A DNA stretch of 52,849 bases from a virus (Duplodnaviria > Heunggongvirae > Uroviricota > Caudoviricetes). The stretch lies in IMG/VR virus record IMGVR_UViG_3300045988_151019; one strand, given 5' to 3'. The position numbers and the translations under genes are program-made. The notes below the pieces were generated by a model. The model was not told the DNA's origin and did not search any database. It was given only the letters and a program-made list of their open reading frames with translations. Positions 1,820 through 41,200 of this stretch are shown piece after piece; the first letter of the stretch is position 1, and the number at the start of each line of letters is the position of its first letter.

Positions 1820-2481
1820 TCTTCAAGGGATTTCTCCGCATATTCACCAGACAGGCCATCAATCGGATGCGCTTCATTAGCCAACTCTTCTTTCGCTGAC
1901 AAAATCATGCGTGTAACGTCGAAAACTTCACGCAAAGACTTATTGATAAATCCGTGATTGAACGCAGCAGCAAGACGGCTGGCGGTATAGTTAATCCCCT
2001 CGTTGCGTGCTTCCGCACGAATTTCAGCCAGAAAAGCATCGGTAGCTGGAGTTTCGCTGTGGTGCAGGGCATCGTTGATAATCATTGCAGCAACTCCGGC
2101 CTGCCCTGCATCCGTGACCGACACATGCTCAAGAGTTACGGCCATTGCGTGTTTCAGCCCGGCGTTCTCTGCCACCAGCGCCGCGAGATTAGTCTCAAGC
2201 TCTGCAATTCGACACATAGCATCAATATTTGTGTCCTCCAGGCACTTAATTTCACCAAGCAGCTCCAGTGCAACCTTTGGGTTGAACGCGGCAACATGAC
2301 GAGCGTTGTTCTCTGCATTTTTCTGTCCATCAAAGCCGGTCCATTTGATAACGTCTTCACATCGTTCATCACCGGGCGTGTGCACCGCATAAGTACCAGT
2401 ATCCGTCGAAATAAATGCGACCCATTCGTCTGGTGTTGCCTTTTCTGCCGCCTCACGCAGTACCTGATAGTTAATTGTCAT
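1783..2481 (-). CDS. Ea22-like modular protein (about 232 aa)
   Basis: ORF track 1783-2490; ATG at 2481 overlaps upstream stop (ATGA); N-terminus MTINYQVLREAAEKATPDEW; C-terminus EQIRKGSSQ. Confidence 0.5.
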   Translation of the reverse strand: MTINYQVLREAAEKATPDEWVAFISTDTGTYAVHTPGDERCEDVIKWTGFDGQKNAENNARHVAAFNPKVALELLGEIKCLEDTNIDAMCRIAELETNLAALVAENAGLKHAMAVTLEHVSVTDAGQAGVAAMIINDALHHSETPATDAFLAEIRAEARNEGINYTASRLAAAFNHGFINKSLREVFDVTRMILSAKEELANEAHPIDGLSGEYAEKSLEEWAEQIRKGSSQ

Positions 2482-3158
2482 TCTCGCCATCCTTCACAGT
2501 TGTAATCACTACAGCCTTCAAAATCATATGGGCTGTACTGCCAGGTAATTTTTCCGCAATGCGGACAATTCCAACGCACCTTCCCGCTTCGCGACTTCTT
2601 TCTTCTGTTCTGCTTTTTCAACCAGTCAGGCATGACCAAACCTGCGCCCTGAACCATTGTTCTGCGGTTAAAGTTATTGATATTGAACGTCCGGCGCTTT
2701 GCTGAATCAGCAATGGAAAATGGCAACCAAACTATTCCTGGTTCGTTTTTGTTGGCGACGCTAAAGATGGTCGCTTTACTGAAGTCATCTGTTGGCAATC
2801 CACCGTGTTGAAGCCAGTAAACATCGTTGCCGTTCCAGCTACCTTTTTTGTAGGCCACATACGCAGTGCAATCTGACTCAATCAGGCTTTCTGTAGGGAT
2901 GTACTGGCAATCAACGTGCCACACAGCCATTGCATCCACGCTATCAGCGCAAACAGGCTGATCGATATCTCGTCCACAATTCCAGGCTTTTTGGGCTTCT
3001 TCCAGCGTGTAAACATGAGCGCGATCGATATCAGAACTGTAACCATTGCCGTTATGGCAATGGAATGAGGCGTTATTACCCACAGTTTCACGCAAGCACA
3101 TCATGTAAAAACGGTTACTCACTGGTTGCCTCCTTGGCGGAGTTGCGCTGCGATGCAT
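2478..3158 (-). CDS. zinc-ribbon protein (C-terminal CPHCG...CSDYNC); probable true start GTG at 3122
   Basis: ORF track; AGGAGG then GTG inside junction cassette; Cys/His-rich. Confidence 0.4.
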   Translation of the reverse strand: MHRSATPPRRQPVSNRFYMMCLRETVGNNASFHCHNGNGYSSDIDRAHVYTLEEAQKAWNCGRDIDQPVCADSVDAMAVWHVDCQYIPTESLIESDCTAYVAYKKGSWNGNDVYWLQHGGLPTDDFSKATIFSVANKNEPGIVWLPFSIADSAKRRTFNINNFNRRTMVQGAGLVMPDWLKKQNRRKKSRSGKVRWNCPHCGKITWQYSPYDFEGCSDYNCEGWRE

Positions 3159-3358
3159 GAAAAAAAAGACTCCCGAGTGTGACAGTTAAGAGCTGGTGCG
3201 AACGCCGCGTTAAGAACGGCGGCATCACAGCCGTCATCAATATAGAGCGCAATTTTTTTCTCCAGGCGCGCTTTGGCTTCCTGCAGCTGCATACCCCGGC
3301 ACGCACGCGGGATATAATCAGCAATTTGAGCGATAGCTTTTTCGTTCTGTTTAAACAT
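3119..3358 (-). CDS. small protein carrying the Ea22-like C-terminal tail (AAQLRQGGNQ); possible remnant module
   Basis: ORF track; third copy of junction cassette at its 3' end. Confidence 0.4.
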   Translation of the reverse strand: MFKQNEKAIAQIADYIPRACRGMQLQEAKARLEKKIALYIDDGCDAAVLNAAFAPALNCHTRESFFSCIAAQLRQGGNQ

Positions 3359-3554
3359 GCTTCACCTCGATAGGCTTGATGGTGTCTAACAGCAGTCGAC
3401 GGCGCGTATTTTCTGCAAAGTGGCGGCGTCCGGTATCTTTGTGGTAAAACTCATTTTTGCCGACGACCCACATCCGCTCTGTTTGGTGCAGTTTTTTTAC
3501 CTTCGGGCCATCTTTGGTGATCACGGTACCGGTATGGGTTTTTACGATTGTCAT
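3351..3554 (-). CDS. hypothetical small basic protein (67 aa)
   Basis: ORF track; ATGA overlap with upstream PAPS-reductase-like gene. Confidence 0.35.
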   Translation of the reverse strand: MTIVKTHTGTVITKDGPKVKKLHQTERMWVVGKNEFYHKDTGRRHFAENTRRRLLLDTIKPIEVKHV

Positions 3555-4429
3555 TCCACTACCTCTTCGAATTTCAACTCCAATTGGTCACCCCAGATTT
3601 CACATGATTCGGAACACGAACCAGTATCAAACCGCTTGGCCAGCACCATCGCCTGATACAAATTTCTGTAGTCACTGTCGGCATACATTCTGGCAATCCC
3701 GTCAAGCGTCAGGTGGCCACGGTACATAACGTCTTTACCTGTTCTGCGATGACCATCCCTGACGTGTTTGCCTGTAACCAGTTCATTAAAAACCCGCATC
3801 AGACCTGGTTCGTCTTTACATGCAAGCCCCAGCTTTTGCGTTGACTTTTTGATGCAAAAAACACAGTTCCCGAGGTGCTCCGGGATTTGCAAATCAAAAG
3901 GTTGTTTTCGCCACCACCGGATAACATCCGACTTATCAAAATCTGACAGTTCGGCAAGATACCGGACGCCCGGTTTCGGTTTCAGCCTACGGGGTTCGTC
4001 CGCACGAATACCGAGCCATGTGATGTAATTCCCTCGCCCAAAATGGTCATCGCAATATTTCGTGAAAGGGGTGAGTTTTAGCCTGTCGGTACAGAACGCG
4101 CCGCCGATGTATGGCGTACCGTACTTTTTAACCATGTCCATAAACGGTTTAAGCACCGGCATTCGCGTCTGAATATCCTTTGGTTCCCATTCCGTATAAC
4201 CATTTGGCTGCCCAAGTTCTGGATTTATATCGACCTGCAACACCGTTAGCGGTACGTTCCAGAACTTCACAACCTCACGAATAAAGCGATACGTCAGAGG
4301 ATGTTCACAGCCGGTATCCATAAAAATGAAATGGACGCTAGCGCCAGCTTTTCGCTGTGCTTCCATCAGATGAACGAGATAAGCCGATGTTCGTCCACCT
4401 GAAAAGCTGACGACTTGATGCATACTCAC
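3551..4429 (-). CDS. PAPS reductase-like (PP-loop ATP pyrophosphatase family) protein
   Basis: N-terminal SFSGGRTSAY PP-loop motif; C-terminal Cys cluster (NCVFC, CSESC); 292 aa. Confidence 0.7.
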   Translation of the reverse strand: MSMHQVVSFSGGRTSAYLVHLMEAQRKAGASVHFIFMDTGCEHPLTYRFIREVVKFWNVPLTVLQVDINPELGQPNGYTEWEPKDIQTRMPVLKPFMDMVKKYGTPYIGGAFCTDRLKLTPFTKYCDDHFGRGNYITWLGIRADEPRRLKPKPGVRYLAELSDFDKSDVIRWWRKQPFDLQIPEHLGNCVFCIKKSTQKLGLACKDEPGLMRVFNELVTGKHVRDGHRRTGKDVMYRGHLTLDGIARMYADSDYRNLYQAMVLAKRFDTGSCSESCEIWGDQLELKFEEVVE

Positions 4430-4432
4430 GGT

Positions 4433-5011
4433 TTATTCCTGAATGCGCTTAAACTCGATTACCCATACCAACGGGTTAGATAGCCAGTTATCCTGCCCGT
4501 AAATACTGCGCCAGATATCACCAAAACCAACGCGATAAACAGCTTCAGATGGCGTAATCTTGTACGTCGCCGGAGTTGCGCCTTCTGCTTTAGCATCTGC
4601 CTCGCTCATGTCATGCAGCCGTTCCACACGCACGTCGGTAATTTCCAGAAGAATGCGCGATGCCCAGCGCGGCATGTGAATTGATGGCGTCCACTTTTCT
4701 GATACTGGTTTATTACAAACCTCGACCGGAACCCGGTGCGTTTGTTCTGTCCAGGAGTTACGCACGCTTGCGCGATAAACCAGCGTTGCGACGTCCGTCG
4801 CTTTGCCATGTACCCGGTAGGTTTCGCGAACCCAAATACGATCGCCCGGTTGACCATATGGACAATGCTTAGCAAGCAACTCTGCGGCCACTGCCCGTCC
4901 ATAGAATTTTTCTTCAACAATCCTGCGAGTCTGTGTTTTATTCCCGCCAAGAATTGCCCGGACCATCTCATCGTTGAAAATCATGCCGCGCTCTTTCACT
5001 TCGCCTTTCAT
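4433..5011 (-). CDS. ASCH-domain protein
   Basis: ILGGNKTQTRR motif typical of ASCH/PUA-like fold; 4 nt after upstream gene; GGGGGA SD. Confidence 0.55.
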   Translation of the reverse strand: MKGEVKERGMIFNDEMVRAILGGNKTQTRRIVEEKFYGRAVAAELLAKHCPYGQPGDRIWVRETYRVHGKATDVATLVYRASVRNSWTEQTHRVPVEVCNKPVSEKWTPSIHMPRWASRILLEITDVRVERLHDMSEADAKAEGATPATYKITPSEAVYRVGFGDIWRSIYGQDNWLSNPLVWVIEFKRIQE

Positions 5012-5189
5012 GCATCCCCCTTACCCATGCGCGACGATGCCGCCAAAAGTGATAGAGAACAGCCAGAAATAGATCGCGGCCATAATGATTTTGAATGCCG
5101 TGTTCATATTTTCAGCTCCTGTGATTGATTGGATACATGCCGCGCCTTGCGGCATGTTTTTATTTTCACTTTCTCTGTTTTAAAAATCA

Positions 5190-5206
5190 AGATTTATTAG
5201 AGCAAT
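5190..5206 (-). promoter_or_regulatory. C1-repressor-type operator motif (plus strand AGATTTATTAGAGCAAT)
   Basis: 16/17 match to consensus ATTGCTCTAATAAATTT as I recall it; lies between two leftward genes. Confidence 0.55.
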
Positions 5207-5712
5207 TATTGTTGGTGGAGAAGCGCGTTTTCATACTCCCTGACCATTAACGTAAGTACGCCGTGACTCCTGAAAACACGCGCCACTTCAATCTTATCTT
5301 CCAGCGCGAACGCAATTTTACTTAGACCAATTTTCTTCAGGAGATCAATCTTTGCTGGACCATCATTTCTGTCATCGGTGGCAGGACGCATAGATAGCAA
5401 AGGCTCAGCCCCGTTTGTTACGTACTTCCGCAGCCAGGCTCGTGTTTTATCCCTTGCGATCTCACAGCGCCCGGTTACAAACCAGACCGTGTAAACGTTA
5501 AATAACTGGCGCACCATATCAATAACCGGAGTGATGGGAGTATCGGTGTCACAGGCGAGATTAAACTCGTTCCAGTCCTTTGTTAATGCACCTTTACCTG
5601 GTGGCGGAAGCAAATGCAGTCTGTCTTCAGTTGCCTCTGATATTGTTCCATCAATATCGACTATGACGATATACGGACGTTCCTGGTGTGCGTGTTTATT
5701 GAAAATACTCAA
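5206..5712 (-). CDS. HAD-superfamily phosphatase (possibly the P1 acid phosphatase Pap)
   Basis: Motif I VIVDIDGTI near N-terminus; 168 aa. Confidence 0.55.
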   Translation of the reverse strand: MSIFNKHAHQERPYIVIVDIDGTISEATEDRLHLLPPPGKGALTKDWNEFNLACDTDTPITPVIDMVRQLFNVYTVWFVTGRCEIARDKTRAWLRKYVTNGAEPLLSMRPATDDRNDGPAKIDLLKKIGLSKIAFALEDKIEVARVFRSHGVLTLMVREYENALLHQQ

Positions 5713-5784
5713 ATGCCCTCCTCATTGGACGAAAAAAATGCTGGTGGGCGCACTCCACCAGCATTAAAAGTGACACTGTAACTA

Positions 5785-7047
5785 TCAGCGGACGTAAATA
5801 GTGCCGCCGTTCTCTTTTTCCCATGCATCGCTACGTGCATAGCAAACATCGAGAAGTCTTCTTGCCGCTGTTTCCTCTAAACCCAATTCGACAACCAACT
5901 GCTCATGACGGCGGGTAACCACATCAAACAGGGTATGCAACCCTTTAGTTGCCAGATCATCAATGAATTCCGGTTCGAACGGCAGCTCTGTATCTGCCAA
6001 CATAACCTCTTGCGCCCACTCAACTCGACGGACCAATTCCGGGCGGCGGCTTTCCATCTCTTTACAGATCAATTCATGGAAGAACTCTACCCAACCTTCC
6101 GGCTGGAACTCGCGGAAAATTGCCAACGGCTGGAAGTTTGGCATCAACCATTCGTTGATACGGATATCAATGGCATAGCCCATGTCGCAGCAGAACTGAT
6201 AAGCAAAGTCCAGCTTAGAAACGATATAAGGACGCTCGTTATTGAACTCTTTAGGCGATGAGATCCCATAAGCCAGGAGGCGCGGGAAGAAGGAGATTTG
6301 CCCTAACGTCGGATGAAGTTTGCTTGCAGGGAAACGGCGCTCAGTAATGCCATACATTTCCTTCTTGAGCGTCGCAAATTTGGCATTCTCATTAACCAGC
6401 GCGGTAACCTCTGCTTTTTTATTAGCAAATGCCACGCGCGCTTCGCTTGCATCTTTAATAGTTTTTTTGAGCTGTTGGTTAAGGTCGGCGACCTGCTTAC
6501 GCAGTTCCTGTCGCTCGCTTTTAGCTTTGTTATAGCGTTTCTCAAGGTTAAAAGGATCAAGTTTCATGATCTCTTTATATTGAGATTTTAGCGTTGAAAT
6601 CTGTGAGTTCCGCAGTTCAACCATCGCGGTCATTTCATTGAGTTTTGTTTCCAGCTCAATGCTTATACGTTCGGCATTATCAGCACGCTGGTTGGCGTCA
6701 TGCGTCGCATCGTCGATCGCGTCCTGTTGCTGGCGTTTCAAATGTTCAATTTGTAGCTGAAGCTCTTCAATTTCTTTACCCTTCAGACCGAGATCCAACT
6801 GCATATTTTCAGCTGCATCTACCAGGGAGTTATGGCTATCAGCTTCTGCGTTATAAACATCAATAAGCTGTGCGTGAAGCATCTCCGCTGACTGAACCGC
6901 ATTATCAAAAAAACGCGCTGTGAGGTCATCACAACTAACGCGGCGTTGCGCGGCCCGGATGTTCTGGATAATGGCCGGGATACCGGCATTCAGGACGTCA
7001 GGGATAGATACATTTTCGATTGATTGGTTTTGTGCTGAAGTGATCAT
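5785..7047 (-). CDS. coiled-coil protein with C-terminal globular domain, function unknown
   Basis: ORF track 420 aa; heptad-rich residues 60-230; conserved-looking C-terminal half. Confidence 0.55.
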   Translation of the reverse strand: MITSAQNQSIENVSIPDVLNAGIPAIIQNIRAAQRRVSCDDLTARFFDNAVQSAEMLHAQLIDVYNAEADSHNSLVDAAENMQLDLGLKGKEIEELQLQIEHLKRQQQDAIDDATHDANQRADNAERISIELETKLNEMTAMVELRNSQISTLKSQYKEIMKLDPFNLEKRYNKAKSERQELRKQVADLNQQLKKTIKDASEARVAFANKKAEVTALVNENAKFATLKKEMYGITERRFPASKLHPTLGQISFFPRLLAYGISSPKEFNNERPYIVSKLDFAYQFCCDMGYAIDIRINEWLMPNFQPLAIFREFQPEGWVEFFHELICKEMESRRPELVRRVEWAQEVMLADTELPFEPEFIDDLATKGLHTLFDVVTRRHEQLVVELGLEETAARRLLDVCYARSDAWEKENGGTIYVR

Positions 7048-7048
7048 T

Positions 7049-7267
7049 TCAAAGTTCCGTATTAGCTTGTGCTTCGGTCATTTTTCCTAAGTATGAAGGA
7101 GGAAGGACTACGCAATTTGTATCCAGTCCCTCACCTATGGCAGCCTGTAAAATTCTGGCTAAGGTGAGTCTCTTGTTGCGATACCTGGTGATGACATGCC
7201 TGATACCGCCGGTCGGCGTAACAAAGGCGATCAGCCAGTAGTGATATTTCCGTCGGAATGGCCACAT
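7049..7267 (-). CDS. hypothetical small ORF downstream of operator pair
   Basis: ORF track only; stop 2 nt before next start. Confidence 0.25.
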   Translation of the reverse strand: MWPFRRKYHYWLIAFVTPTGGIRHVITRYRNKRLTLARILQAAIGEGLDTNCVVLPPSYLGKMTEAQANTEL

Positions 7268-7281
7268 AGTGCACCTTGTAG

Positions 7282-7298
7282 ATTGCTCTAATAAAAAA
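7282..7298 (+). promoter_or_regulatory. C1-type operator motif (ATTGCTCTAATAAAAAA)
   Basis: 14/17 consensus match; inverted partner at 7331-7347. Confidence 0.5.
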
Positions 7299-7320
7299 CG
7301 TGATGAGTGTACATCACGTT
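7297..7320. other. perfect palindrome AACGTGATG-agtgtac-CATCACGTT between two operators
   Basis: Read directly; flanked by A-run and T-run, so a possible bidirectional hairpin. Confidence 0.45.
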
Positions 7321-7330
7321 TTAAAAATAT

Positions 7331-7347
7331 GGAATTATTAGAGCAAT
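7331..7347 (-). promoter_or_regulatory. C1-type operator motif (plus strand GGAATTATTAGAGCAAT)
   Basis: Close consensus match in inverted orientation. Confidence 0.5.
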
Positions 7348-7348
7348 A

Positions 7349-8050
7349 TTATTCTGATTCTCGCTCAAAAAATGAGCTGATAAGGGGAAGCCAATCCTCT
7401 GACACTTCGCGAGGTCGCGGTTTGCCGTGGAAAAAGATTATTCGGCAGTCTTTTGGTAATGCCCCATTCCCCCTGGAGTAACGCGCGCTCGCATATTTTG
7501 AACCAGGTTCCACAACATCGGCCTTGTAACTTACAAACCATCCTGGATACAGATCCTGAAATGCTGGTGTATCATCGCCCATAACCTTTCGTAAGAACCC
7601 CTGGTCACCCCAGCACTCAGTAGTGACACAACGAGAAATCCAACCTTCCGGATCTTGCCAGAATGAACTCCAGATATGCGCTTTAACACTATTTGGTATC
7701 CACAGGGCACCGCTGCCACGATATTGTGGATGGTAAAAATCCCTAAGCATGGTGAAGCTGGTTGGTGGATGCTCTAGGATTGGGCGTATATCACCGGCAA
7801 TAACCGTGTCCAAATCCAGATAGAACAGATCATCGGTTATATCCGGTCGGAACAACTCGATTTTCGCCCACCAGCCACGGCACTTTTGCCACTGGTTGAT
7901 CAATGGGACAACTTTGACGCCAGGTACATGTAAACGCTTCAGGTCTGTCAGGCAAATAATTTCATAGCCTTTTGGCAGTTGATTAACCAGCCACTGCACA
8001 TCGGAAGCGTTATAGTCACCACCAGAGCGAAAAACTAAAGCAATCTTCAT
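7349..8050 (-). CDS. GT-A-like (family 8-like) glycosyltransferase candidate
   Basis: [19 protein letters not shown] resembles the GT8 YLDxD(I/V)xxDIxxL nucleotide-sugar motif; 233 aa. Confidence 0.4.
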
Positions 8051-8739
8051 GCTGCACCATCACCTTTCACTTTCATCAATGTCAGGTTTCCGCAAAATAC
8101 GGCACCAGTGTCGATATACTGCTGATTCCAGAATGTCTTCGGGCTTTTCACCGGAGTGTGACCAAAGATAAAACGATCTGCGCCAGAAATTTCGCCACCA
8201 ATATCATCCATCGAATCACTGATACGCTCGCGCGCCCAGACAACGTTGAAAAGCGGCACCTCCTTACCGAATTGGTATTCATTATCCGGATAGTCGGCAT
8301 GGGCTATAACGATAGTTTCTTGCCCGGTGTTCAACTCAATGATATAGGGCAGACGCTTTACCAGCTCCACCAGCGCCCTGGCTAATATTTCCTGATCAGT
8401 GTCCAGCATGAAGAACCATTGTCCGCCATTCATTAGCCAGTTATTCACGTTGCCATCAGGACTTAACGCATCGAGCATCAACCGCTCATGGTTCCCCATC
8501 ACTGCCCTGAACCAGGGCATCTGCAATAGTTCCAGACATTCGACATTTTCAGTACCGCGATCGATAAGGTCGCCGACCGATATCAGTAAATCCTGCGCCG
8601 GGTCAAAATCCACACGATGGAGTTCGGACATCAGTCTGGTGTAGCAACCATGCAGATCACCAACAACCCAGACATTCCTGTATTTGGTACCGTCGATACG
8701 GTGATAAATTGTGGGTGCCATCATGTATTCTTCAGCCAT
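8047..8739 (-). CDS. ppp: Ser/Thr protein phosphatase (lambda PPase / calcineurin-like metallophosphoesterase)
   Basis: GDLHGC, GDLIDRG and GNHE motifs; 230 aa. Confidence 0.8.
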
Positions 8740-9347
8740 TCTTTAAGAGTCATCTGCGGAATACCTCCCATTTTCCCGCATGAAACAACGTCAATCTGTT
8801 CACGCGCAGACTGGAATAACAAAGGCAGGTGACTTAGATTTTTTGGCGTGCCGCCGGAGTGAACGCGTAGTTCTTGCGTAGCGTCAACGCCCACCAGAGC
8901 TACATGTTTGAATCCGATATGGAAAGCCAGGTTCAGAGCACCATATGCACTATTGCCGCTGGCAATTTCATTCTCATCTTCGCAAAGGCCGAAATGTGCG
9001 GACCAGCGCCACGCCCACCACTCGGGAGAATTCGTATTTTTTGGCTCCATGCCGCGTTCAGCCACACGACGGAAGCACAGAACGCCATCTCTGACTTCAC
9101 GTTCTTTAACATCGGGTAGTGCCATGCAATAACAAACACCACGGCGACGGCGGCCACGACCAACGCGCCGCATATTGTCTGGCGATGGATCAAGTGTGAA
9201 AAAATAAGAAGCGCGGTTCAGCCAGTCGATGGCCCCATTGACCGCTATAATCGGCACTCCGCGCGGCGCAACAAAGTTTGCGGCGCTTGGGCCACTGCCG
9301 ACGATAATAACGCGATCACTGCCTCTAAATTTATTCTTGGGAAACAT
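8721..9347 (-). CDS. GSGPS-motif Rossmann protein, paralogue A (DUF115/MptE-like?)
   Basis: [34 protein letters not shown]; paralogous to 9245-9907. Confidence 0.5.
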
Positions 9348-21405: not shown

Positions 21406-23660
21406 ATTGCTATAACGTCATGAGCAACACCTCGAGTGTCCCCCTTACAAGACACAGAACGTCTGGCAAAAAGAGGTTCCACTCTGAAGCCACTGTCCTG
21501 ATAAAGTTCTCTGATGTTTGGCGCGCCACTGTTAGTAATGAGAACCTTTGCACCTCGGCGATGAGCATCCGTCAACAGAGACGCCAGGCGTTTTTGCTCT
21601 TCAAACTTAAAGTCATGACCGGAATAGTTCGTGAATCCCTCTGTATTTGGGAGCGGTTCATACGGCGGATCGCAAAAGATGACATCTCCTTCTCCGGCAG
21701 CTTCAATCACCGCAGCAAAATCACCACATACAAACTCAGAACGCCCTTCCGCACCAAGGAAGGCTACCATCTCCTGCAATGGGAAATACGGAGTTTTATA
21801 CTTCCCATAACCGACATTGAACTCACCGGCTTGGTTGTAACGCGTCAATCCGTTAAAACAATGTCGGTTCAGGAACAAAAACGCCGCTGCGCGATGTAAA
21901 TCATCATAGACTTGTTTGTTAAACGCATTCCGTACTGCCAGGTATCCTTCCTGCGTGTTGTAGTCCTGGAAGAAACGATGTGCCAGAGTGATAAGTGAAT
22001 GCGCCTCGCGTTGCAGAGTCTTGTAAAAGTTAATCAGGTCAGCATTCACATCATTTAGCAGATTTTCCTGGTATCCGGCATTCATGAAGACAGCTCCGCC
22101 ACCAACGAAAGGTTCAATCAGGCGCTTCCCTTCTGGCAAATAGCGAAAGATTTGTTCCAGAACACCAAATTTTCCACCAGCCCATTTGAATATGGACCGT
22201 TCGAATTCTGCCGCTGGTTTAACTTTTCGCTCTTTTGTTTCACTCCCTTCCTTCTGCCGACATGCAGCCTTGGCAATCCGATCGCCAATCCAGCGCATTA
22301 CTGGTATCGCCATACTATTGCCGATCGCTTTGTAACGCGGTCCGTCAGCTGCAAGCATTGCGGCCTCTTCTTCGCTTAAATCTGGATAGTGATTGTGCAG
22401 ATATGCCAGTTCATCTGAATTAACTTTTTTACGCTTTTCCGTAGGGATCAATGTATGCCCATCAGGAAAACCTTGAAGTCTCTCACATTCGACAGGGGTA
22501 AGACGGCGGACAGCTACTTCTTCGTTTCTTACTTCATAGCAAACAGCAGTTGGATTTTGAGCCATTAGAGATGGTGAAGTATTCTTAGTTGCTGCATGTT
22601 GTGTACCACTCATACGCTCAGGAAAAGCCAATGTAACAAGATGCTCATGGCTTTCTTGCTCACGCGCCCGCAATGTACCATGCCCTTCTGACCAAAAACC
22701 TGCTCCAGTGCTGCTAAAAACGGCAAGGTCAGTGGCATCTTTAAAGTCTCTTGCCTTTACTGTCGATGCGGTTTCATCGTCAATATATTCCCCAAATGCC
22801 GCCATCCTGAAACCGTTTACGGATTTCGTCGATTTCATACCGGGGGACATGCCAGCGTGTAGGCATGGATTTAGGCTTTCGCCACTGATTGCAGCGCCAT
22901 TTGCAGTAATGGCGGAAGCGATTTCCTTCTTTTTTCGGCTCGGCGCAATATTCCGGCGCACGCCTTCGAACTCAAAAAGTACCGTTGCGGGATCGAAGTC
23001 TGTTCGAGCACTTGCGACAACAAACACGCGTCGGCGTCGTTGTGCCACTCCGAAGTATTGGGCATCAAGGATTCTCCAGGCCACCTTTCGCTGCGGTCCA
23101 TAAATACAACCACACTGCGGCCACTTTGGAGCATGGCAACCGGTTTTGCCATCCCACCGCCAGAACGCGTTACTTTTTCCTGATTCAGGTCGATCACCTG
23201 GTTCAAATGGCGCATCTTCTCCAGCCAATCCGGCAAGGAAACATCCGAAGGCGTTATCTGCCGATGACAGGACTCCTGGGACATTTTCCCAGACGATAAC
23301 TGTCGGTTTGAGGAAGGACTCAGACCGTTTGTCGTCAATTGCATTTGCAAGCTCCACATACTTCAAAGTTAGCGCGCCGCGTTCATCATCAAGCCCACCA
23401 CGTAAGCCCGCGATACTGAATGCCTGACAAGGCGTACCCCCGACGAGCACATCAGGGGATTCGATTTCCCCAGCCAGGACTTTTTTGGCAAGTTTTGTCA
23501 TGTCGCCAAGGTTGGCGACATGGGGCCAGCGGTGCGCAAGAACGGCAGATGGAAAAGGCTCGATTTCAGCAAACCACGCCGGACGCATACCCAACGGTTC
23601 CCAGGCAATACTCGCGGCTTCAATTCCACTGCAAACAGATCCATAGCACAGCTCTTTCAC
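21396..23660 (-). CDS. dmt: bifunctional DNA methyltransferase: N-terminal C5-cytosine MTase fused to C-terminal Dam-like N6-adenine MTase
   Basis: 754 aa; N-terminal [17 protein letters not shown] motifs; C-terminal AGGK...GGGAVF and DPPY motifs. Confidence 0.9.
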
Positions 23661-24562
23661 TGCTTAGCCTCTCCACCAAGGGCATTTACCAGAGCATCAA
23701 CCAGGCACGAAATTTCACTGGTCAACAGGAAGAAATCTGCGTCCAGTCGCTGCGCAACATCTTCACTATCAATATCAGAGTTCTGCTCAAGCAATTCATC
23801 CGCAAATTTGACGCTGGTAAGGCTGAAGTTATGGTCCAGTGTAAATTTAATGCGGTTCTGCCAGTCGAGTGCCAACTTAGTAACGAGCTTGCCAGCTTCC
23901 AGGTGTGTGGAAATTTCATCGCTTCCCAAATCCTGCTTTTTCACTCGGGCAATACCGCCATCCTCAAGCACTGCCTTAAGTTCTGCCGCATCCCCCATTT
24001 GAAATCCCTGTGGAGCACTACCATCACGTACCCAGTCGGTCAGCGTTAATTCAATGGGATTTTCAACACTTAGGGGAACAACAGGAAGAGAACCCAGAGA
24101 TTTACGCATAAGCGCGAGCATATCCTCTGCCTGCCGCGCGCTGGCATTGATATAGATACGTTTAGTTGAACCGTCGTAGATCGCCTGGATAACAGAAAAC
24201 TTTGAAAAAGCCCGTGGCAGAAGAGAATGCAGAACTTCGTCTTTCAGGGAGTCCTTCTCTGTTTTCTTCAGTTTACGCGCTTGTTCTTGCTCGAGTTTTT
24301 CAATTTTTTCTTGAATAGCTCGCTGGATAACCGGCGGGGGAAGGATTTTTGTTTCGCGCTTTGCTTCAACAAGGATAAAACCATTTCCATGCATAGCGAT
24401 AACTTCGGAATTATCACCAAATGGAGATACAAAACCGAACTTGGCCATATCCTGACTACCGCATGGCGTGAAAAGGATCATTTTCTTTTTATCTTCTAAG
24501 TCGGTCAGATCCGCTTCACGAGAAAGTTTATAAATAGTAATGTTTTTCCAGTGCTTAAACAT
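23657..24562 (-). CDS. hrdC: RdgC-like recombination-associated protein (start [13 protein letters not shown])
   Basis: Near full-length similarity to E. coli RdgC as recalled ([31 protein letters not shown]); ORF track 23657-24676. Confidence 0.8.
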
Positions 24563-37181: not shown

Positions 37182-37337
37182 TTACCTTTCAGATTCGTAG
37201 GCTGTGAAGACAGTGACCTCCGTCTGGCTGGTTCGGATTCGTACCTCGCAGAGGTCTTTCCTCGTTACCAGTGCCGTCACAATGACGGTTAAACAGATGA
37301 CGATCAGAGCGATTAACATCGCTTTTTGCTGCTTCAT
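37182..37337 (-). CDS. hok: Hok/Gef-family type I toxin (51 aa)
   Basis: MKQQKAMLIALIVICLTVIVTALVTRKDLCEVRIRTSQTEVTVFTAYESER, near-identical to chromosomal HokC/Gef and HokD/RelF as I recall them. Confidence 0.85.
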   Translation of the reverse strand: MKQQKAMLIALIVICLTVIVTALVTRKDLCEVRIRTSQTEVTVFTAYESER

Positions 37338-37395
37338 AGCCTGCTTCTCCTTGACCTTTTGGTCGGTAAGAGGCTAATCTACGTATGCTAAGCAT
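37189..37395 (-). CDS. mok: Mok-like overlapping reading frame (modulation of killing)
   Basis: 68-aa ORF overlapping hok in another frame, as in hok/mok/sok loci. Confidence 0.5.
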   Translation of the reverse strand: MLSIRRLASYRPKGQGEAGYEAAKSDVNRSDRHLFNRHCDGTGNEERPLRGTNPNQPDGGHCLHSLRI

Positions 37396-37450
37396 AGATA
37401 TGGCCTCAGATTAATGTTAAGCGTCTTGCAGGACGCGTAATGTTATCTGG
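37349..37450 (+). ncRNA. putative Sok-like antisense RNA and its promoter (boundaries approximate)
   Basis: Plus-strand TTGACC-18 nt-TAATCT promoter at 37349-37377, antisense to the mok start region. Confidence 0.3.
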
Positions 37451-37518
37451 GGCTTTCTTCTATCTGCTTTTCGGGTAATGCCTGAAGCAGATAGCCTCAA
37501 GCACCCGCAACGATTGTA

Positions 37519-40909: not shown

Positions 40910-41200
40910 TTACGGCCTCGTAAGTTGATAAACAACCTGCGACCCGCTGCTAAACAGGTGGCAGGACGTGACGGGGTTAGCAGACTGGCACTTACGAAAC
41001 CAGCAGGCCGAAGCCTCCCCATCACGCCCCACCATAATTCGGGCGTAACGTGGTTTACGGACACAAAAATACCGCAATATCGGAAATCTGCGGTTGTCCG
41101 CGTAAGTATTCAGGCTGCTAAACCCGGTCGCAGAATTTGCTACGACGGCGGAACTATAAGCCTGAACGATTAAAAGGTCAATATGATGCGAAAAGATAGC
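40910..41200 (-). ncRNA. immI leader region expected to hold the c4 antisense RNA and its target repeats (boundaries not resolved)
   Basis: No protein-coding signal; repeated GCTGCTAAAC at 40946 and 41113; sits between operator and icd. Confidence 0.3.

What the first reader, a model, noticed from the sequence alone, without database searches (positions are those of the whole stretch)
3551..5712. PAPS-reductase-like, ASCH and HAD-phosphatase genes form a candidate nucleic-acid modification module
Three consecutive leftward genes encode a PP-loop PAPS-reductase/DndC-like enzyme with a C-terminal Cys cluster, an ASCH domain protein (fold associated with modified-nucleotide recognition), and a small HAD phosphatase. 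The HAD gene is followed by a C1-type operator. The combination suggests an adenylation/thiolation-type chemistry acting on DNA, RNA or tRNA with a reader/eraser partner. I know of no described function for this trio in P1-like phages.
Basis: inference. Interest (0 to 1): 0.55.

Follow-up and report, generated by a model that had tools for sequence, protein, structure and literature searches.

The report
P1 accessory genes, not one module
The three genes are real and their domains check out, but they are a mosaic junction of two P1-type transcription units (P1's pap, a pmgT-family ASCH gene and a borrowed lambda-type ninC gene), not a dedicated three-gene nucleic-acid modification system.

Summary
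All three leftward ORFs sit exactly where stated. The window is an IncY P1-like phage-plasmid.

- **5206-5712:** P1 Pap (98% identical), a stand-alone T4-Pnk-type HAD 3'-phosphatase domain.
- **5190-5206:** the C1 operator is P1's Op88/OpmgT. It controls the next operon, so pap lies upstream of the promoter that drives the other two genes.
- **4433-5011:** a PmgT-family protein. It misses Pfam's ASCH threshold, but it aligns along its whole length with the ASCH enzyme YqfB, and all four YqfB catalytic residues are conserved.
- **3551-4429:** an 80%-identical ortholog of lambda NinC. This is a PP-loop, PAPS-reductase-fold protein with six invariant cysteines. It is not CysH and not DndC.

DNA comparison shows that ninC is cargo recombined into a chimeric pmgT gene. 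About 10% of pap-bearing plasmids carry it. Outside this lineage the families rarely co-occur. NinC-like genes normally sit in nin regions, and PmgT-like genes sit in early-left regions. Pap-like genes appear only on P1 backbones.

The one functional lead is that NinC-like domains are repeatedly fused to DNA methyltransferases.

Interest is low to moderate.

The parts
5206..5712 (-). pap: stand-alone HAD 3'-phosphatase domain of the T4 Pnk / PNKP type (motif I D19-I-D21-G-T23). It is part of the P1 backbone and the last gene before the C1-controlled pmgT promoter.
   Evidence: PF25109 E=7.8e-12, 46 bits against a cut-off of 27.6. PHROG 415 and 505 'polynucleotide kinase'; the PHROG 505 match covers only profile positions 156-292 of 295, the phosphatase part. 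164 of 168 residues identical to P1 Pap. Present in 655 plasmid records.
5737..5765 (-). Terminator-like hairpin plus T-run between pmgS and pap.
   Evidence: 11-bp stem with 6 G-C pairs, followed by TTTTTCG. Consensus scan only.
5190..5206 (-). C1 repressor operator, the homologue of P1 Op88/OpmgT and P7 Op(hea). It overlaps the pap stop codon.
   Evidence: 16 of 17 match to ATTGCTCTAATAAATTT. Its position corresponds to the annotated P1 and P7 operators (coordinate offset).
5162..5205 (-). Predicted sigma-70 promoters P1pmgT (-35 TTGATT at 5190-5185, -10 GAAAAT at 5167-5162) and P2pmgT. They overlap the operator and start the early accessory operon.
   Evidence: Transferred from the P1 annotation through 98.6%-identical DNA. 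Sequence read. No transcript data.
5021..5107 (-). Small hydrophobic leader ORF (MNTAFKIIMAAIYFWLFSITFGGIVAHG) with an AGGAG ribosome-binding site upstream. The longer 44-aa reading starts at 5155.
   Evidence: SJ46 annotates a 'membrane protein' under the matching stretch. It is not annotated in P1.
4433..5011 (-). pmgT-family gene encoding an ASCH-fold protein. It carries the YqfB-type octapeptide G23-N-K25-T-Q-T28-R-R30 plus E143. The gene is chimeric: its 5' part is P7/P1-like and its 3' part comes from another phage-plasmid lineage.
   Evidence: 43% identical to P1 PmgT and 84% to P7 Upf86.8. PHROG 874, E=1.8e-83. More than 31,000 cluster representatives at E<=1e-10. ASCH evidence. Invariant residues. 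Chimerism.
4577..4687 (.). Left recombination interval inside the pmgT-like gene. It is shared by both the P7-like and the L011/L012-like parents.
   Evidence: blastn: window 4577-9000 matches P7 at 98.6%, and window 3548-4687 matches L011/L012 at 97.7%.
3551..4429 (-). ninC-type gene: PP-loop ATP-pyrophosphatase fold of the PAPS-reductase clade. It has six invariant cysteines and a disordered tail (266-292) carrying C272 and C276. It starts 3 nt after the pmgT-like stop codon.
   Evidence: 80% identical to lambda NinC over residues 3-287. 92.5% nucleotide identity to Stx-phage early-left DNA.
3351..3554 (-). 67-aa ORF of unknown function. Its start overlaps the ninC stop. It travels with ninC in Stx phages.
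   Evidence: PHROG 1226, E=3e-42. Lies inside the 3115-4428 block shared with Stx phages.
3119..3358 (-). 79-aa ORF of unknown function. It is the last gene of the imported block. The right breakpoint lies at about 3115-3133.
   Evidence: PHROG 1344, E=1.1e-52. Block limits.
2478..3158 (-). Homologue of P7 Upf87.6. The operon continues here and P7-like DNA resumes at 2445-3133.
   Evidence: PHROG 2457, E=5e-119. 98.3% nucleotide identity to P7.

Best explanation
The 2.2-kb span is the junction of two C1-repressed transcription units of a P1-like (IncY) phage-plasmid. It is not a dedicated three-gene system.

- **pap (shown).** A P1 backbone gene lying upstream of the C1-controlled pmgT promoter. 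It encodes only the HAD 3'-phosphatase half of a T4-Pnk-like enzyme. I infer that it removes 3'-phosphate or 2',3'-cyclic phosphate from broken RNA or DNA ends.
- **Operator and promoters (shown by homology).** The C1 operator Op88/OpmgT and its overlapping sigma-70 promoters follow pap. When C1 repression is lifted they start a tightly packed early accessory operon.
- **First genes of that operon.** A small hydrophobic leader ORF comes first. It is followed by a pmgT-family ASCH protein that keeps the Lys/Thr/Arg/Glu catalytic set of the N4-acetylcytidine amidohydrolase YqfB. I infer that it hydrolyses an N-acylated base, most likely ac4C on tRNA or as a free nucleoside.
- **ninC (shown).** The next gene is an 80% ortholog of lambda NinC. 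It was imported, together with two small ORFs, by recombination inside the pmgT homologue of another phage-plasmid.
- **NinC chemistry (inferred).** NinC is an ATP-using PP-loop enzyme with a cysteine-rich, probably metal- or sulfur-handling C-terminal half. Relatives are repeatedly fused to C5-cytosine and N6-adenine DNA methyltransferases. I therefore think it most likely acts on DNA as an accessory modification or anti-restriction function.

The three proteins probably work independently. They sit side by side because this is the variable cargo slot of P1-like phages.
For: **Identity and context**
- P1/P7/SJ46 synteny and annotation, and an IncY plasmid record with the same arrangement.
- Operator and the promoters annotated in P1, mapped through 98.6%-identical DNA.

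**Mosaic structure**
- Window 4577-9000 matches P7. Window 4920-9000 matches P1.
- Window 3548-4687 matches L011/L012 at 97.7%. This is a roughly 93-kb plasmid lineage with no C1 operator in the 12.9 kb held.
- Window 3115-4428 matches Stx phages at 92.5%. Window 2445-3133 matches P7 again.

**Frequency**
- The ninC allele is in about 65 plasmid records. pap is in 655.

**Co-occurrence**
- The PmgT-like/NinC-like adjacency is found only with the >=98%-identical ninC allele, in 12 of 80 loci.
- It is found in 1 of 80 diverse PmgT-like loci.
- It is found in 2 of 52 species-level loci and 0 of 60 loci of a second lineage. Pap-like genes are in 0 of those 112.
- The usual NinC neighbours are NinB (44 of 111 loci), NinG, NinE/F and the replication proteins O and P.
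- PmgT-like genes are in 17 of 75 exonuclease (early-left) loci and 0 of 75 NinG loci. NinC-like genes show the reverse, 0 of 75 and 10 of 75.

**Protein assignments**
- ASCH catalytic alignment: with PMC6972931. All 19 tested ASCH proteins deacetylate tRNA ac4C (bioRxiv 10.64898/2026.02.27.708502).
- NinC fold and motifs. Its N-terminal half matches the SspD model at E=1.8e-13.
- Fusions: Dcm-NinC-D12 Dam, Dcm-NinC-PF05869 Dam and NinC-PF05869 Dam.
- pap, pmgT and lambda ninC are dispensable in CRISPRi screens (PMC10695390).
Against: - No transcript data. Read-through from pap into the pmgT operon is possible, and no minus-strand terminator was found between them.
- The ASCH and ninC genes are 3 nt apart and probably translationally coupled. 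The same junction exists in a second plasmid lineage.
- In two Xenorhabdus prophages a NinC-like and a PmgT-like gene lie within 2.5 kb of each other. An occasional functional link between those two cannot be excluded.
- The loci sampled per search are the 80 best matches, not a random or phylogenetically corrected sample.
- Every biochemical activity named here is inferred.
- The fusions to methyltransferases could reflect the 'polyvalent protein' habit of joining unrelated counter-defence domains, rather than shared chemistry.
Confidence: 0.7

Rival explanations
1. The three genes cooperate in one nucleic-acid modification pathway. NinC adenylates or thiolates a base or the backbone, the ASCH protein reads or erases the mark, and Pap trims a phosphate intermediate.
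For: The genes are contiguous on one strand. ASCH and ninC are 3 nt apart. All three domains belong to families that act on nucleic acids. The ASCH-ninC pair recurs in a second plasmid lineage and, loosely, in two Xenorhabdus prophages.
Against: The operator and promoter separate pap from the other two genes. The DNA is a three-source mosaic. pap is roughly ten times more widespread than ninC. P1 and P7 lack ninC, and lambda and Stx phages lack the other two. Co-occurrence is 2 of 112, 0 of 112 and 1 of 80 outside the near-identical allele. The two families normally sit in different operons of lambdoid prophages.
Confidence: 0.08
2. A two-gene tRNA-directed pair. NinC acts like the PP-loop tRNA enzymes (TilS, TtcA, TtuA) on a cytidine or uridine, and the ASCH protein removes N4-acetyl from C34 of tRNA-Met. 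Together they retune host or phage tRNAs or protect them from anticodon nucleases. Pap heals cleaved tRNA ends independently.
For: ASCH proteins deacetylate tRNA ac4C. The catalytic residues are conserved. Foldseek also lists TtuA, NcsA, TilS and the [4Fe-4S] form of LarE as structural relatives of NinC. The phage carries tRNA genes, including one with a CAT anticodon. Pap resembles the healing domain of T4 Pnk and Pnkp1.
Against: The structural matches to tRNA enzymes are weaker than those to CysH and APS reductase. The TilS model scores E=0.0033, 16 bits against a cut-off of 606. No tRNA-binding domain was detected. NinC fusions are with DNA methyltransferases, not RNA enzymes. The two families rarely co-occur.
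Confidence: 0.1
3. The ninC-like gene is an auxiliary metabolic gene: a true PAPS reductase that boosts host sulfate assimilation during infection.
For: Database name and Pfam family. CysH is the best structural match.
Against: Only 18-20% identical to CysH, over about 180 of 292 residues. The NCBIfam CysH equivalog scores 21.9 bits against a cut-off of 154. The sequence keeps a glycine-rich PP-loop (SGGRTS), where V. vulnificus CysH has SSSFGIQA. It ends in SCSESCE, not the ECGLH motif that I recall from the literature as the CysH catalytic tail (for the sequence). Six extra invariant cysteines. Fusions to DNA methyltransferases.
Confidence: 0.04
4. NinC works with the nin-region recombination proteins (NinB/Orf, NinG/Rap) in DNA recombination or replication restart. 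In the P1-like plasmid it is a bystander separated from its partners.
For: NinB is the immediate upstream neighbour in 44 of 111 loci, and NinG is nearby in 31. One Vibrio phage record names the protein 'putative NinC recombination protein'.
Against: Synteny in lambdoid nin regions is ancestral gene order, not proof of shared function. ninC moves without ninB in Stx phages and in this window. No recombination-type domain was detected.
Confidence: 0.08

Closest known systems
Phage lambda NinC (Orf290)
   Same: 80% amino-acid identity over residues 3-287. Same length class, the same PP-loop and the same six cysteines as the rest of the family.
   Different: Here it is not in a nin region next to NinB. 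It lies in the C1-controlled accessory operon of a P1-like plasmid, directly after a pmgT-family gene. Lambda NinC has no assigned function: it is called 'poorly understood' (PMC3224144) and is non-essential (PMC10695390).
P1 PmgT / P7 Upf86.8 (first gene of the Op88-controlled pmgT/'hea' operon)
   Same: Same position behind the same operator. 84% identical to Upf86.8 and 43% to PmgT, with an identical N-terminus.
   Different: Shorter than P1 PmgT (192 aa against 309 aa). Its 3' third comes from another lineage. The name 'putative morphogenetic function' in P1 is not backed by any test I could find, and the gene is dispensable.
E. coli YqfB and other ASCH-domain ac4C amidohydrolases / tRNA ac4C erasers
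   Same: Collinear alignment over all 103 YqfB residues. The threonine-type octapeptide (G-x-K-T-x-T-x-R) and the acid residue are conserved. Their roles in YqfB were shown by mutagenesis (PMC6972931).
   Different: About twice as long, with three insertions that carry their own invariant motifs (CPYGxPGD, PSIHMPRWASR). Below Pfam's ASCH threshold. Structural matches are weak. Substrate unknown.
SspD / DndC / BrxP (PAPS-reductase-family ATP pyrophosphatases of DNA phosphorothioation systems)
   Same: Same superfamily. The N-terminal 145 residues match the SspD model at E=1.8e-13. Cysteine-rich. Linked to DNA modification through gene fusions.
   Different: Far below the DndC equivalog cut-off, 17.8 bits against 290.4. 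The SspD match covers only half of the profile. No cysteine desulfurase, DndD/E or SspB/C partners are nearby. No evidence of phosphorothioate.
T4 polynucleotide kinase-phosphatase / Pnkp1 phosphatase domain; P1 Pap
   Same: HAD_PNKP domain with a DxDGT motif. 98% identical to P1 Pap.
   Different: No kinase domain, so it cannot be the bifunctional enzyme that some records name it. No RNA ligase partner was seen in the region.
Phage multi-domain DNA methyltransferase fusions (P1 Dmt-like Dcm+Dam; 'polyvalent' counter-defence proteins)
   Same: NinC-like domains occur inside such fusions: Dcm-NinC-Dam in Mixta and Sodalis, and NinC-Dam in Providencia, Erwinia and a Vibrio phage.
   Different: The window's NinC stands alone. 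The phage's own Dcm+D12 Dam gene is 17 kb away, at 21399-23663.

Membership tests
PP-loop ATP pyrophosphatase / PAPS-reductase family (PF01507) | Profile match above the curated threshold | tested here: met
   PF01507: 37.7 bits against a cut-off of 22.5, E=2.8e-9, but only residues 6-72.
PP-loop ATP pyrophosphatase / PAPS-reductase family (PF01507) | Glycine-rich PP-loop (SGGxxS) after strand 1, and the Rossmann-like fold | tested here: met
   S8-F-S-G-G-R-T-S15 is invariant or nearly so. The AF2 model has pLDDT 85.8. Foldseek top hits are CysH and APS reductase with probability 1.0.
Assimilatory PAPS reductase CysH | Equivalog-level sequence match | tested here: not met
   NF002537: 21.9 bits against a cut-off of 154. 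18-20% identity in structural alignments.
Assimilatory PAPS reductase CysH | C-terminal catalytic Cys in an ECGLH-type tail (motif recalled from the literature, not checked here) | tested here: not met
   The tail reads ...DTGSCSESCEIWG. It has a mobile Cys-bearing tail (pLDDT <50 for 266-292) but a different motif.
DndC (DNA phosphorothioation) | Equivalog match and dndA/D/E partner genes | tested here: not met
   TIGR03183: 17.8 bits against a cut-off of 290.4. PADLOC DndC E about 5e-4. No partner genes in the window region or in related loci.
SspD (single-strand DNA phosphorothioation) | Full-length profile match and sspABC partner genes | tested here: inconclusive
   The PADLOC SspD model scores E=1.8e-13, but only residues 5-148 against profile positions 2-121 of 277. 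No ssp partner genes were seen.
Lambda NinC orthologous group | High full-length identity to lambda NinC | tested here: met
   80.0% over residues 3-287 of the query, next to NinB in the lambda record.
ASCH domain (PF04266) | Profile match above the curated threshold | tested here: not met
   15.3 bits against a cut-off of 21.2, E=0.034. 35 of 61 relatives give sub-threshold hits, best E=0.0011.
ASCH domain (PF04266) | Conserved octapeptide G-x-K-[TE]-x-[TE]-x-R near the N-terminus | tested here: met
   G23-N-K25-T26-Q27-T28-R29-R30. K25, T28, R29 and R30 are invariant in 60 sequences. The motif classes GKTR and GKER are described in bioRxiv 10.64898/2026.02.27.708502.
ASCH domain (PF04266) | Beta-barrel fold collinear with a solved ASCH protein | tested here: inconclusive
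YqfB-type N4-acylcytidine amidohydrolase | Catalytic Lys/Thr/Arg plus Glu present | tested here: met
   K25, T28, R30 and E143 align with K21, T24, R26 and E74. Mutagenesis of the YqfB residues is in PMC6972931.
YqfB-type N4-acylcytidine amidohydrolase | Hydrolysis of ac4C or a related amide | not testable with these tools
   Needs an enzyme assay.
HAD phosphatase, PNKP type (PF25109); P1 Pap | Profile match above threshold, DxDGT nucleophile motif, orthology to Pap | tested here: met
   46 bits against a cut-off of 27.6. V-D19-I-D21-G-T23 in the sequence. 98% identical to P1 Pap.
Bifunctional polynucleotide 5'-kinase/3'-phosphatase (T4 Pnk) | P-loop kinase domain | tested here: not met
   The protein has 168 aa and matches only the phosphatase part of PHROG 505 (profile positions 156-292 of 295).
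P1 C1 operator | 17-bp asymmetric consensus at a position homologous to a mapped operator | tested here: met
   16 of 17 at 5190-5206(-). Homologous to Op88/OpmgT and Op(hea).
Single functional module of the three genes | One transcription unit | tested here: not met
   The operator and the annotated promoters lie between pap and the ASCH gene. This rests on homology and is not an RNA measurement.
Single functional module of the three genes | Conserved co-occurrence across lineages | tested here: not met
   figures are given in the report.

The most novel reading that the evidence does not exclude
The NinC family, lambda NinC included, may be an ATP-dependent, cysteine/iron-sulfur DNA-modifying enzyme. 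It would install a non-methyl mark, for example a sulfur-containing one, alongside phage methyltransferases to evade restriction. The very large PmgT/ASCH family (more than 31,000 sequence clusters) may be phage-encoded erasers of N-acyl base marks such as tRNA ac4C. In this P1 variant the two would be co-expressed from one C1-controlled promoter and could act as a writer/eraser pair.
Probability: 0.12. Interest if true: 0.7.

Novelty: new member of a known kind. Interest (0 to 1): 0.3.

Why it matters
As a module, it does not matter much. It is one of many cargo combinations in the variable early operon of P1-like phage-plasmids, and annotated plasmid records already contain it.

Two by-products are worth keeping:
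- **PmgT family.** PmgT is the conserved first gene behind Op88 in P1-like phages and belongs to a huge phage family with no assigned function. It carries the full catalytic set of the ac4C amidohydrolase YqfB. That makes a simple enzyme test possible.
- **NinC family.** I found no assigned function for lambda NinC in the searchable literature. It belongs to a family repeatedly fused to DNA methyltransferases. That points to a DNA-directed, counter-restriction role that can be tested by nucleoside mass spectrometry and plating on restricting hosts.

Tried and rejected
- **First searches on the ASCH candidate.** Pfam, NCBIfam and PDB sequence searches gave nothing. The first homology search returned only near-identical proteins with no Pfam domains. 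I switched to the 50%-clustered library.
- **Fold searches on the ASCH model.** They were weak. The afdb50 library was not available. A single-sequence hhalign with default settings aligned only residues 121-150. A lower alignment threshold plus shuffled controls gave the full-length alignment.
- **Methyltransferase neighbourhood, rejected.** I noticed PF05869 Dam genes near both NinC-like loci (17 of 52 and 12 of 60) and PmgT-like loci (13 of 78), and took this as a possible three-way link. Control loci centred on an exonuclease and on NinG had Dam within 6 kb in 39% and 53% of cases. Proximity is therefore background, and only the fusions are kept as evidence.
- **NinC cysteines.** I tried to map the six cysteines onto the Fe-S ligands of APS reductase. 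The Fe-S idea stays an inference.
- **Literature.** The 'PmgT' search was swamped by unrelated acronyms. The P1 genome paper is not held. One search failed because a term was too short. No paper assigning a function to NinC-type phage proteins was found. A 2024 paper states that these proteins 'deserve further investigation' (PMC11437467).
- **Other checks.** The defence-system library gave no hit for the ASCH protein, Pap or the small ORFs. Rfam found no RNA family inside 2400-7100.

Full report
**What is there**

The window is a P1-like phage-plasmid. The stretch around the finding matches P7, SJ46 and P1 at 98%. It also matches many E. coli plasmids of 90-100 kb, and the one record I opened is typed IncY. 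Nine C1-operator-like sites occur in the window against 0.34 expected by chance. Rfam finds the P1-type C4 antisense RNA and three tRNAs.

**The HAD gene is P1 pap**

- Its product is 164 of 168 residues identical to P1 Pap.
- It passes Pfam's threshold for the PNKP-type HAD phosphatase domain: PF25109, 46 bits against a cut-off of 27.6.
- It has the DxDGT nucleophile motif (VDIDGT, residues 18-23).
- It matches only the phosphatase part of the T4-Pnk-like PHROG 505. It is therefore a phosphatase without a kinase domain.
- Its closest solved relative by sequence is the phosphatase domain of the RNA-repair enzyme Pnkp1.
- It is a backbone gene, present in 655 plasmid records. It is dispensable in P1 (PMC10695390).

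**The operator belongs to the next operon**

ATTGCTCTAATAAATCT at 5190-5206(-) matches the C1 operator consensus at 16 of 17 positions and overlaps the pap stop codon. The DNA from 4920 to 9000 is 98.6% identical to P1. On that alignment the site corresponds exactly to Op88/OpmgT. The P1 annotation links this operator with two sigma-70 promoters reading into pmgT. P7 annotates the same site as Op(hea), 'predicted to regulate expression of hea operon'.

Transferred to the window, the -35 box is TTGATT (5190-5185) and the -10 box is GAAAAT (5167-5162). So pap lies upstream of the promoter that drives the other two genes. It follows pmgR and pmgS on the same strand, with a terminator-like hairpin between pmgS and pap. 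A 28-aa hydrophobic ORF with a good ribosome-binding site lies in the leader between the promoter and the ASCH gene.

**The middle gene is a pmgT-family ASCH protein**

Family placement:
- 84% identical to P7 Upf86.8 and 43% to P1 PmgT, with the same first 33 residues.
- The family is very large: 31,455 cluster representatives at E<=1e-10. PHROGs lists it as function unknown.

Standard tests do not call it ASCH:
- Pfam gives nothing at E<0.01.
- The PDB sequence search gives no hit.
- The AF2 model is mediocre, with pLDDT 70.5.

Three further results make the assignment sound:
1. ASCH is the only Pfam family that recurs among relatives, in 35 of 61.
2. The profile aligns collinearly with all 103 residues of YqfB. 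I checked my recalled YqfB sequence and it is identical to 1TE7. The score is 25.4, against 11.7 +/- 2.6 (maximum 19.6) for 60 shuffles.
3. That alignment puts YqfB K21, T24, R26 and E74 on K25, T28, R30 and E143. The first three are invariant and E143 is at least 90% conserved in the family.

In YqfB the first three residues are essential, and E74 is the proposed acid (PMC6972931). A 2026 preprint reports that all 19 ASCH proteins tested remove ac4C from tRNA. It distinguishes the threonine-type (GKTR) octapeptide found here from the GKER type.

The protein also has three insertions with their own invariant motifs. It is therefore a distinct ASCH subfamily whose substrate is unknown.

**The left gene is a lambda-type ninC**

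- It passes PF01507.
- Its model is confident (pLDDT 85.8). Its best structural matches are CysH and APS reductase, followed by the [4Fe-4S] form of LarE, CysD, GMP synthase and TtuA.
- It is 80% identical to lambda NinC and 96% identical to a gene in the early-left region of Stx phages.
- The family has a canonical PP-loop and six invariant cysteines: C113, C126, C189, C192, C272 and C276. The last two lie in a disordered C-terminal tail.
- It is not CysH (21.9 bits against a cut-off of 154) and not DndC (17.8 against 290.4).
- Among defence-system models its N-terminal half is closest to SspD, E=1.8e-13.
- I found no paper that assigns a function. Lambda NinC is called 'poorly understood' and is non-essential. 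A 2024 paper says phage PAPS-reductase homologues 'deserve further investigation'.

**The region is a mosaic (blastn)**

| Window segment | Best match | Identity |
|---|---|---|
| 4577-9000 | P7 | 98.6% |
| 4920-9000 | P1 | 98.6% |
| 3548-4687 | L011/L012, a different roughly 93-kb plasmid lineage | 97.7% |
| 3115-4428 | Stx phages | 92.5% |
| 2445-3133 | P7 again | 98.3% |

- In the L011/L012 lineage a 55%-identical PmgT-like gene precedes the same ninC. That lineage has no pap within 6 kb and no C1 operator in the 12.9 kb held.
- The pmgT-like gene in the window is therefore chimeric, with a crossover between 4577 and 4687.
- ninC and two small ORFs (67 and 79 aa) replace the roughly 380 bp that P7 has at this place.
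- The ninC allele occurs in about 65 plasmid records, roughly a tenth of those that carry pap. None of the P1-like records in the phage collection has it.

**Do the families travel together?**

I fetched loci around relatives and scanned them with profiles built from my alignments.

| Locus set | Result |
|---|---|
| 80 closest NinC-like viral loci | 12 have a PmgT-like gene; all 12 carry the >=98%-identical ninC allele; 8 of them also have pap |
| 80 diverse PmgT-like loci (39-84% identical) | 1 has a NinC-like gene |
| 52 species-level genome loci | 2 have a PmgT-like gene; 0 have a Pap-like gene |
| 60 loci of a second NinC lineage | 0 have a PmgT-like gene; 0 have a Pap-like gene |

- The usual NinC neighbours are the classical nin genes: NinB in 44 of 111 loci, plus NinG, NinE/F and the replication proteins O and P.
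- PmgT-like genes usually lie near the integrase and the exonuclease.
- In control loci, PmgT-like genes occur in 17 of 75 exonuclease loci and 0 of 75 NinG loci.
- NinC-like genes show the reverse pattern, 0 of 75 and 10 of 75.
- In lambdoid prophages the two families therefore normally belong to different early operons.

**A lead that did not survive, and one that did**

PF05869 Dam genes lie near many NinC-like and PmgT-like genes. They are even more frequent near control genes, at 39% and 53%. Proximity therefore means nothing here.

What remains is gene fusion, verified with Pfam:
- Dcm-NinC-D12 Dam in Mixta (1099 aa).
- Dcm-NinC-PF05869 Dam in Sodalis (1031 aa).
- NinC-PF05869 Dam in Providencia, Erwinia relatives and Vibrio phage 44E38.1.

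Three architectures with two unrelated adenine-methylase families argue that NinC-like domains work on DNA, or at least in the same counter-restriction setting as phage orphan methylases.

**How it most likely works**

- **Shown.** Gene identities, the operator, the mosaic structure, the rarity of ninC, and the lack of conserved co-occurrence.
- **Inferred from homology to annotated P1.** Loss of C1 repression fires PpmgT. This transcribes the leader ORF, the ASCH gene, ninC, the two small ORFs, the Upf87.6 homologue and the Ead/Ea22-like genes as one tightly packed early operon. Stops and starts overlap or lie 3 nt apart.
- **Inferred from family knowledge.** Pap removes 3'-terminal phosphates from nucleic acids. 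The ASCH protein hydrolyses an N-acyl base such as ac4C. NinC uses ATP and its cysteines to modify DNA.

I put 0.7 on the overall reading that these are independent accessory functions placed side by side in a cargo slot. I put about 0.4 on the DNA-directed role of NinC and about 0.5 on an amidohydrolase role for the ASCH protein.

**Verdict**

The parts are orthologues of named genes (pap, pmgT, ninC), and annotated plasmid records already contain this exact arrangement. It is a new member of a known kind, of low to moderate interest. The useful outputs are two testable hypotheses, one for PmgT and one for NinC, both of which lack an assigned function.

Noticed in passing
window 5021-5107 (-), longer reading to 5155: A 28-aa strongly hydrophobic ORF (MNTAFKIIMAAIYFWLFSITFGGIVAHG) with an AGGAG ribosome-binding site lies in the leader of the C1-controlled pmgT-type operon. 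The DNA is shared with P1, where it is not annotated. SJ46 annotates a 'membrane protein' under the matching stretch.
   Followed up: partly
L197:4402-7698 (Mixta tenebrionis); L201:4438-7530 (Sodalis sp. RH21); L206, L207, L203: Large single ORFs fuse a C5-cytosine methylase, a NinC-like PAPS-reductase domain and an N6-adenine methylase. The adenine methylase is D12 class in one and PF05869 in the other. Shorter NinC-Dam fusions occur in Providencia and Erwiniaceae. All were confirmed by Pfam.
   Followed up: yes
L165, L167, L170, L171, L172, L174 (GTDB species-representative genomes): Contigs of about 48.4-48.5 kb, or fragments, hold an identical NinC 80% like the window's. Where the contig title states coverage it is low. 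They appear in assemblies of Pseudomonas, Oceanobacillus, Neobacillus, Shewanella and a Chromatiales MAG. They look like phage lambda contamination of those assemblies.
   Followed up: partly
window 7349-8050 (-): The PmgQ homologue ('putative morphogenetic function' in P1) matches PHROG 1962, annotated as glycosyltransferase, at E=2.5e-128.
   Followed up: no
window 21399-23663 (-): A long ORF matches both a C5-cytosine methylase and a D12-class Dam. It looks like the P1 Dmt-type double methyltransferase, so the phage already has its own methylases 17 kb from ninC.
   Followed up: no
window 18491-18566, 20567-20642, 20645-20720 (-): Three tRNA genes: Met-type with a CAT anticodon, Thr (TGT) and Asn (GTT). 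The CAT-anticodon tRNA is of interest if the ASCH protein really acts on ac4C34. That link is speculation only.
   Followed up: no
window 37332-37506 (-); 40954-41039 (-); 41107-41159 (-): Rfam finds a sok antitoxin RNA (hok/sok-type addiction module), the C4 antisense RNA of the P1 immunity region, and its a1/b1 target sites.
   Followed up: no
window 5737-5765 (-): A terminator-like hairpin (11-bp stem plus T-run) lies between pmgS and pap. pap may therefore be expressed only by read-through or from an unmapped promoter.
   Followed up: no
L012:4299-5294 and plasmids such as CP058021.1: In the second phage-plasmid lineage that carries the PmgT-like/ninC pair, an HNH/DUF968 endonuclease gene directly precedes the PmgT-like gene and a NinI-like phosphatase gene precedes that. 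No C1 operator occurs in the 12.9 kb held.
   Followed up: partly
L187 and L223 (Xenorhabdus prophages): NinC-like, PmgT-like and PF05869 Dam genes lie in a row on one strand within about 3.5 kb. These are the only loci outside the window's lineage where the first two are close. Given the high background of Dam genes, this may be chance.
   Followed up: partly
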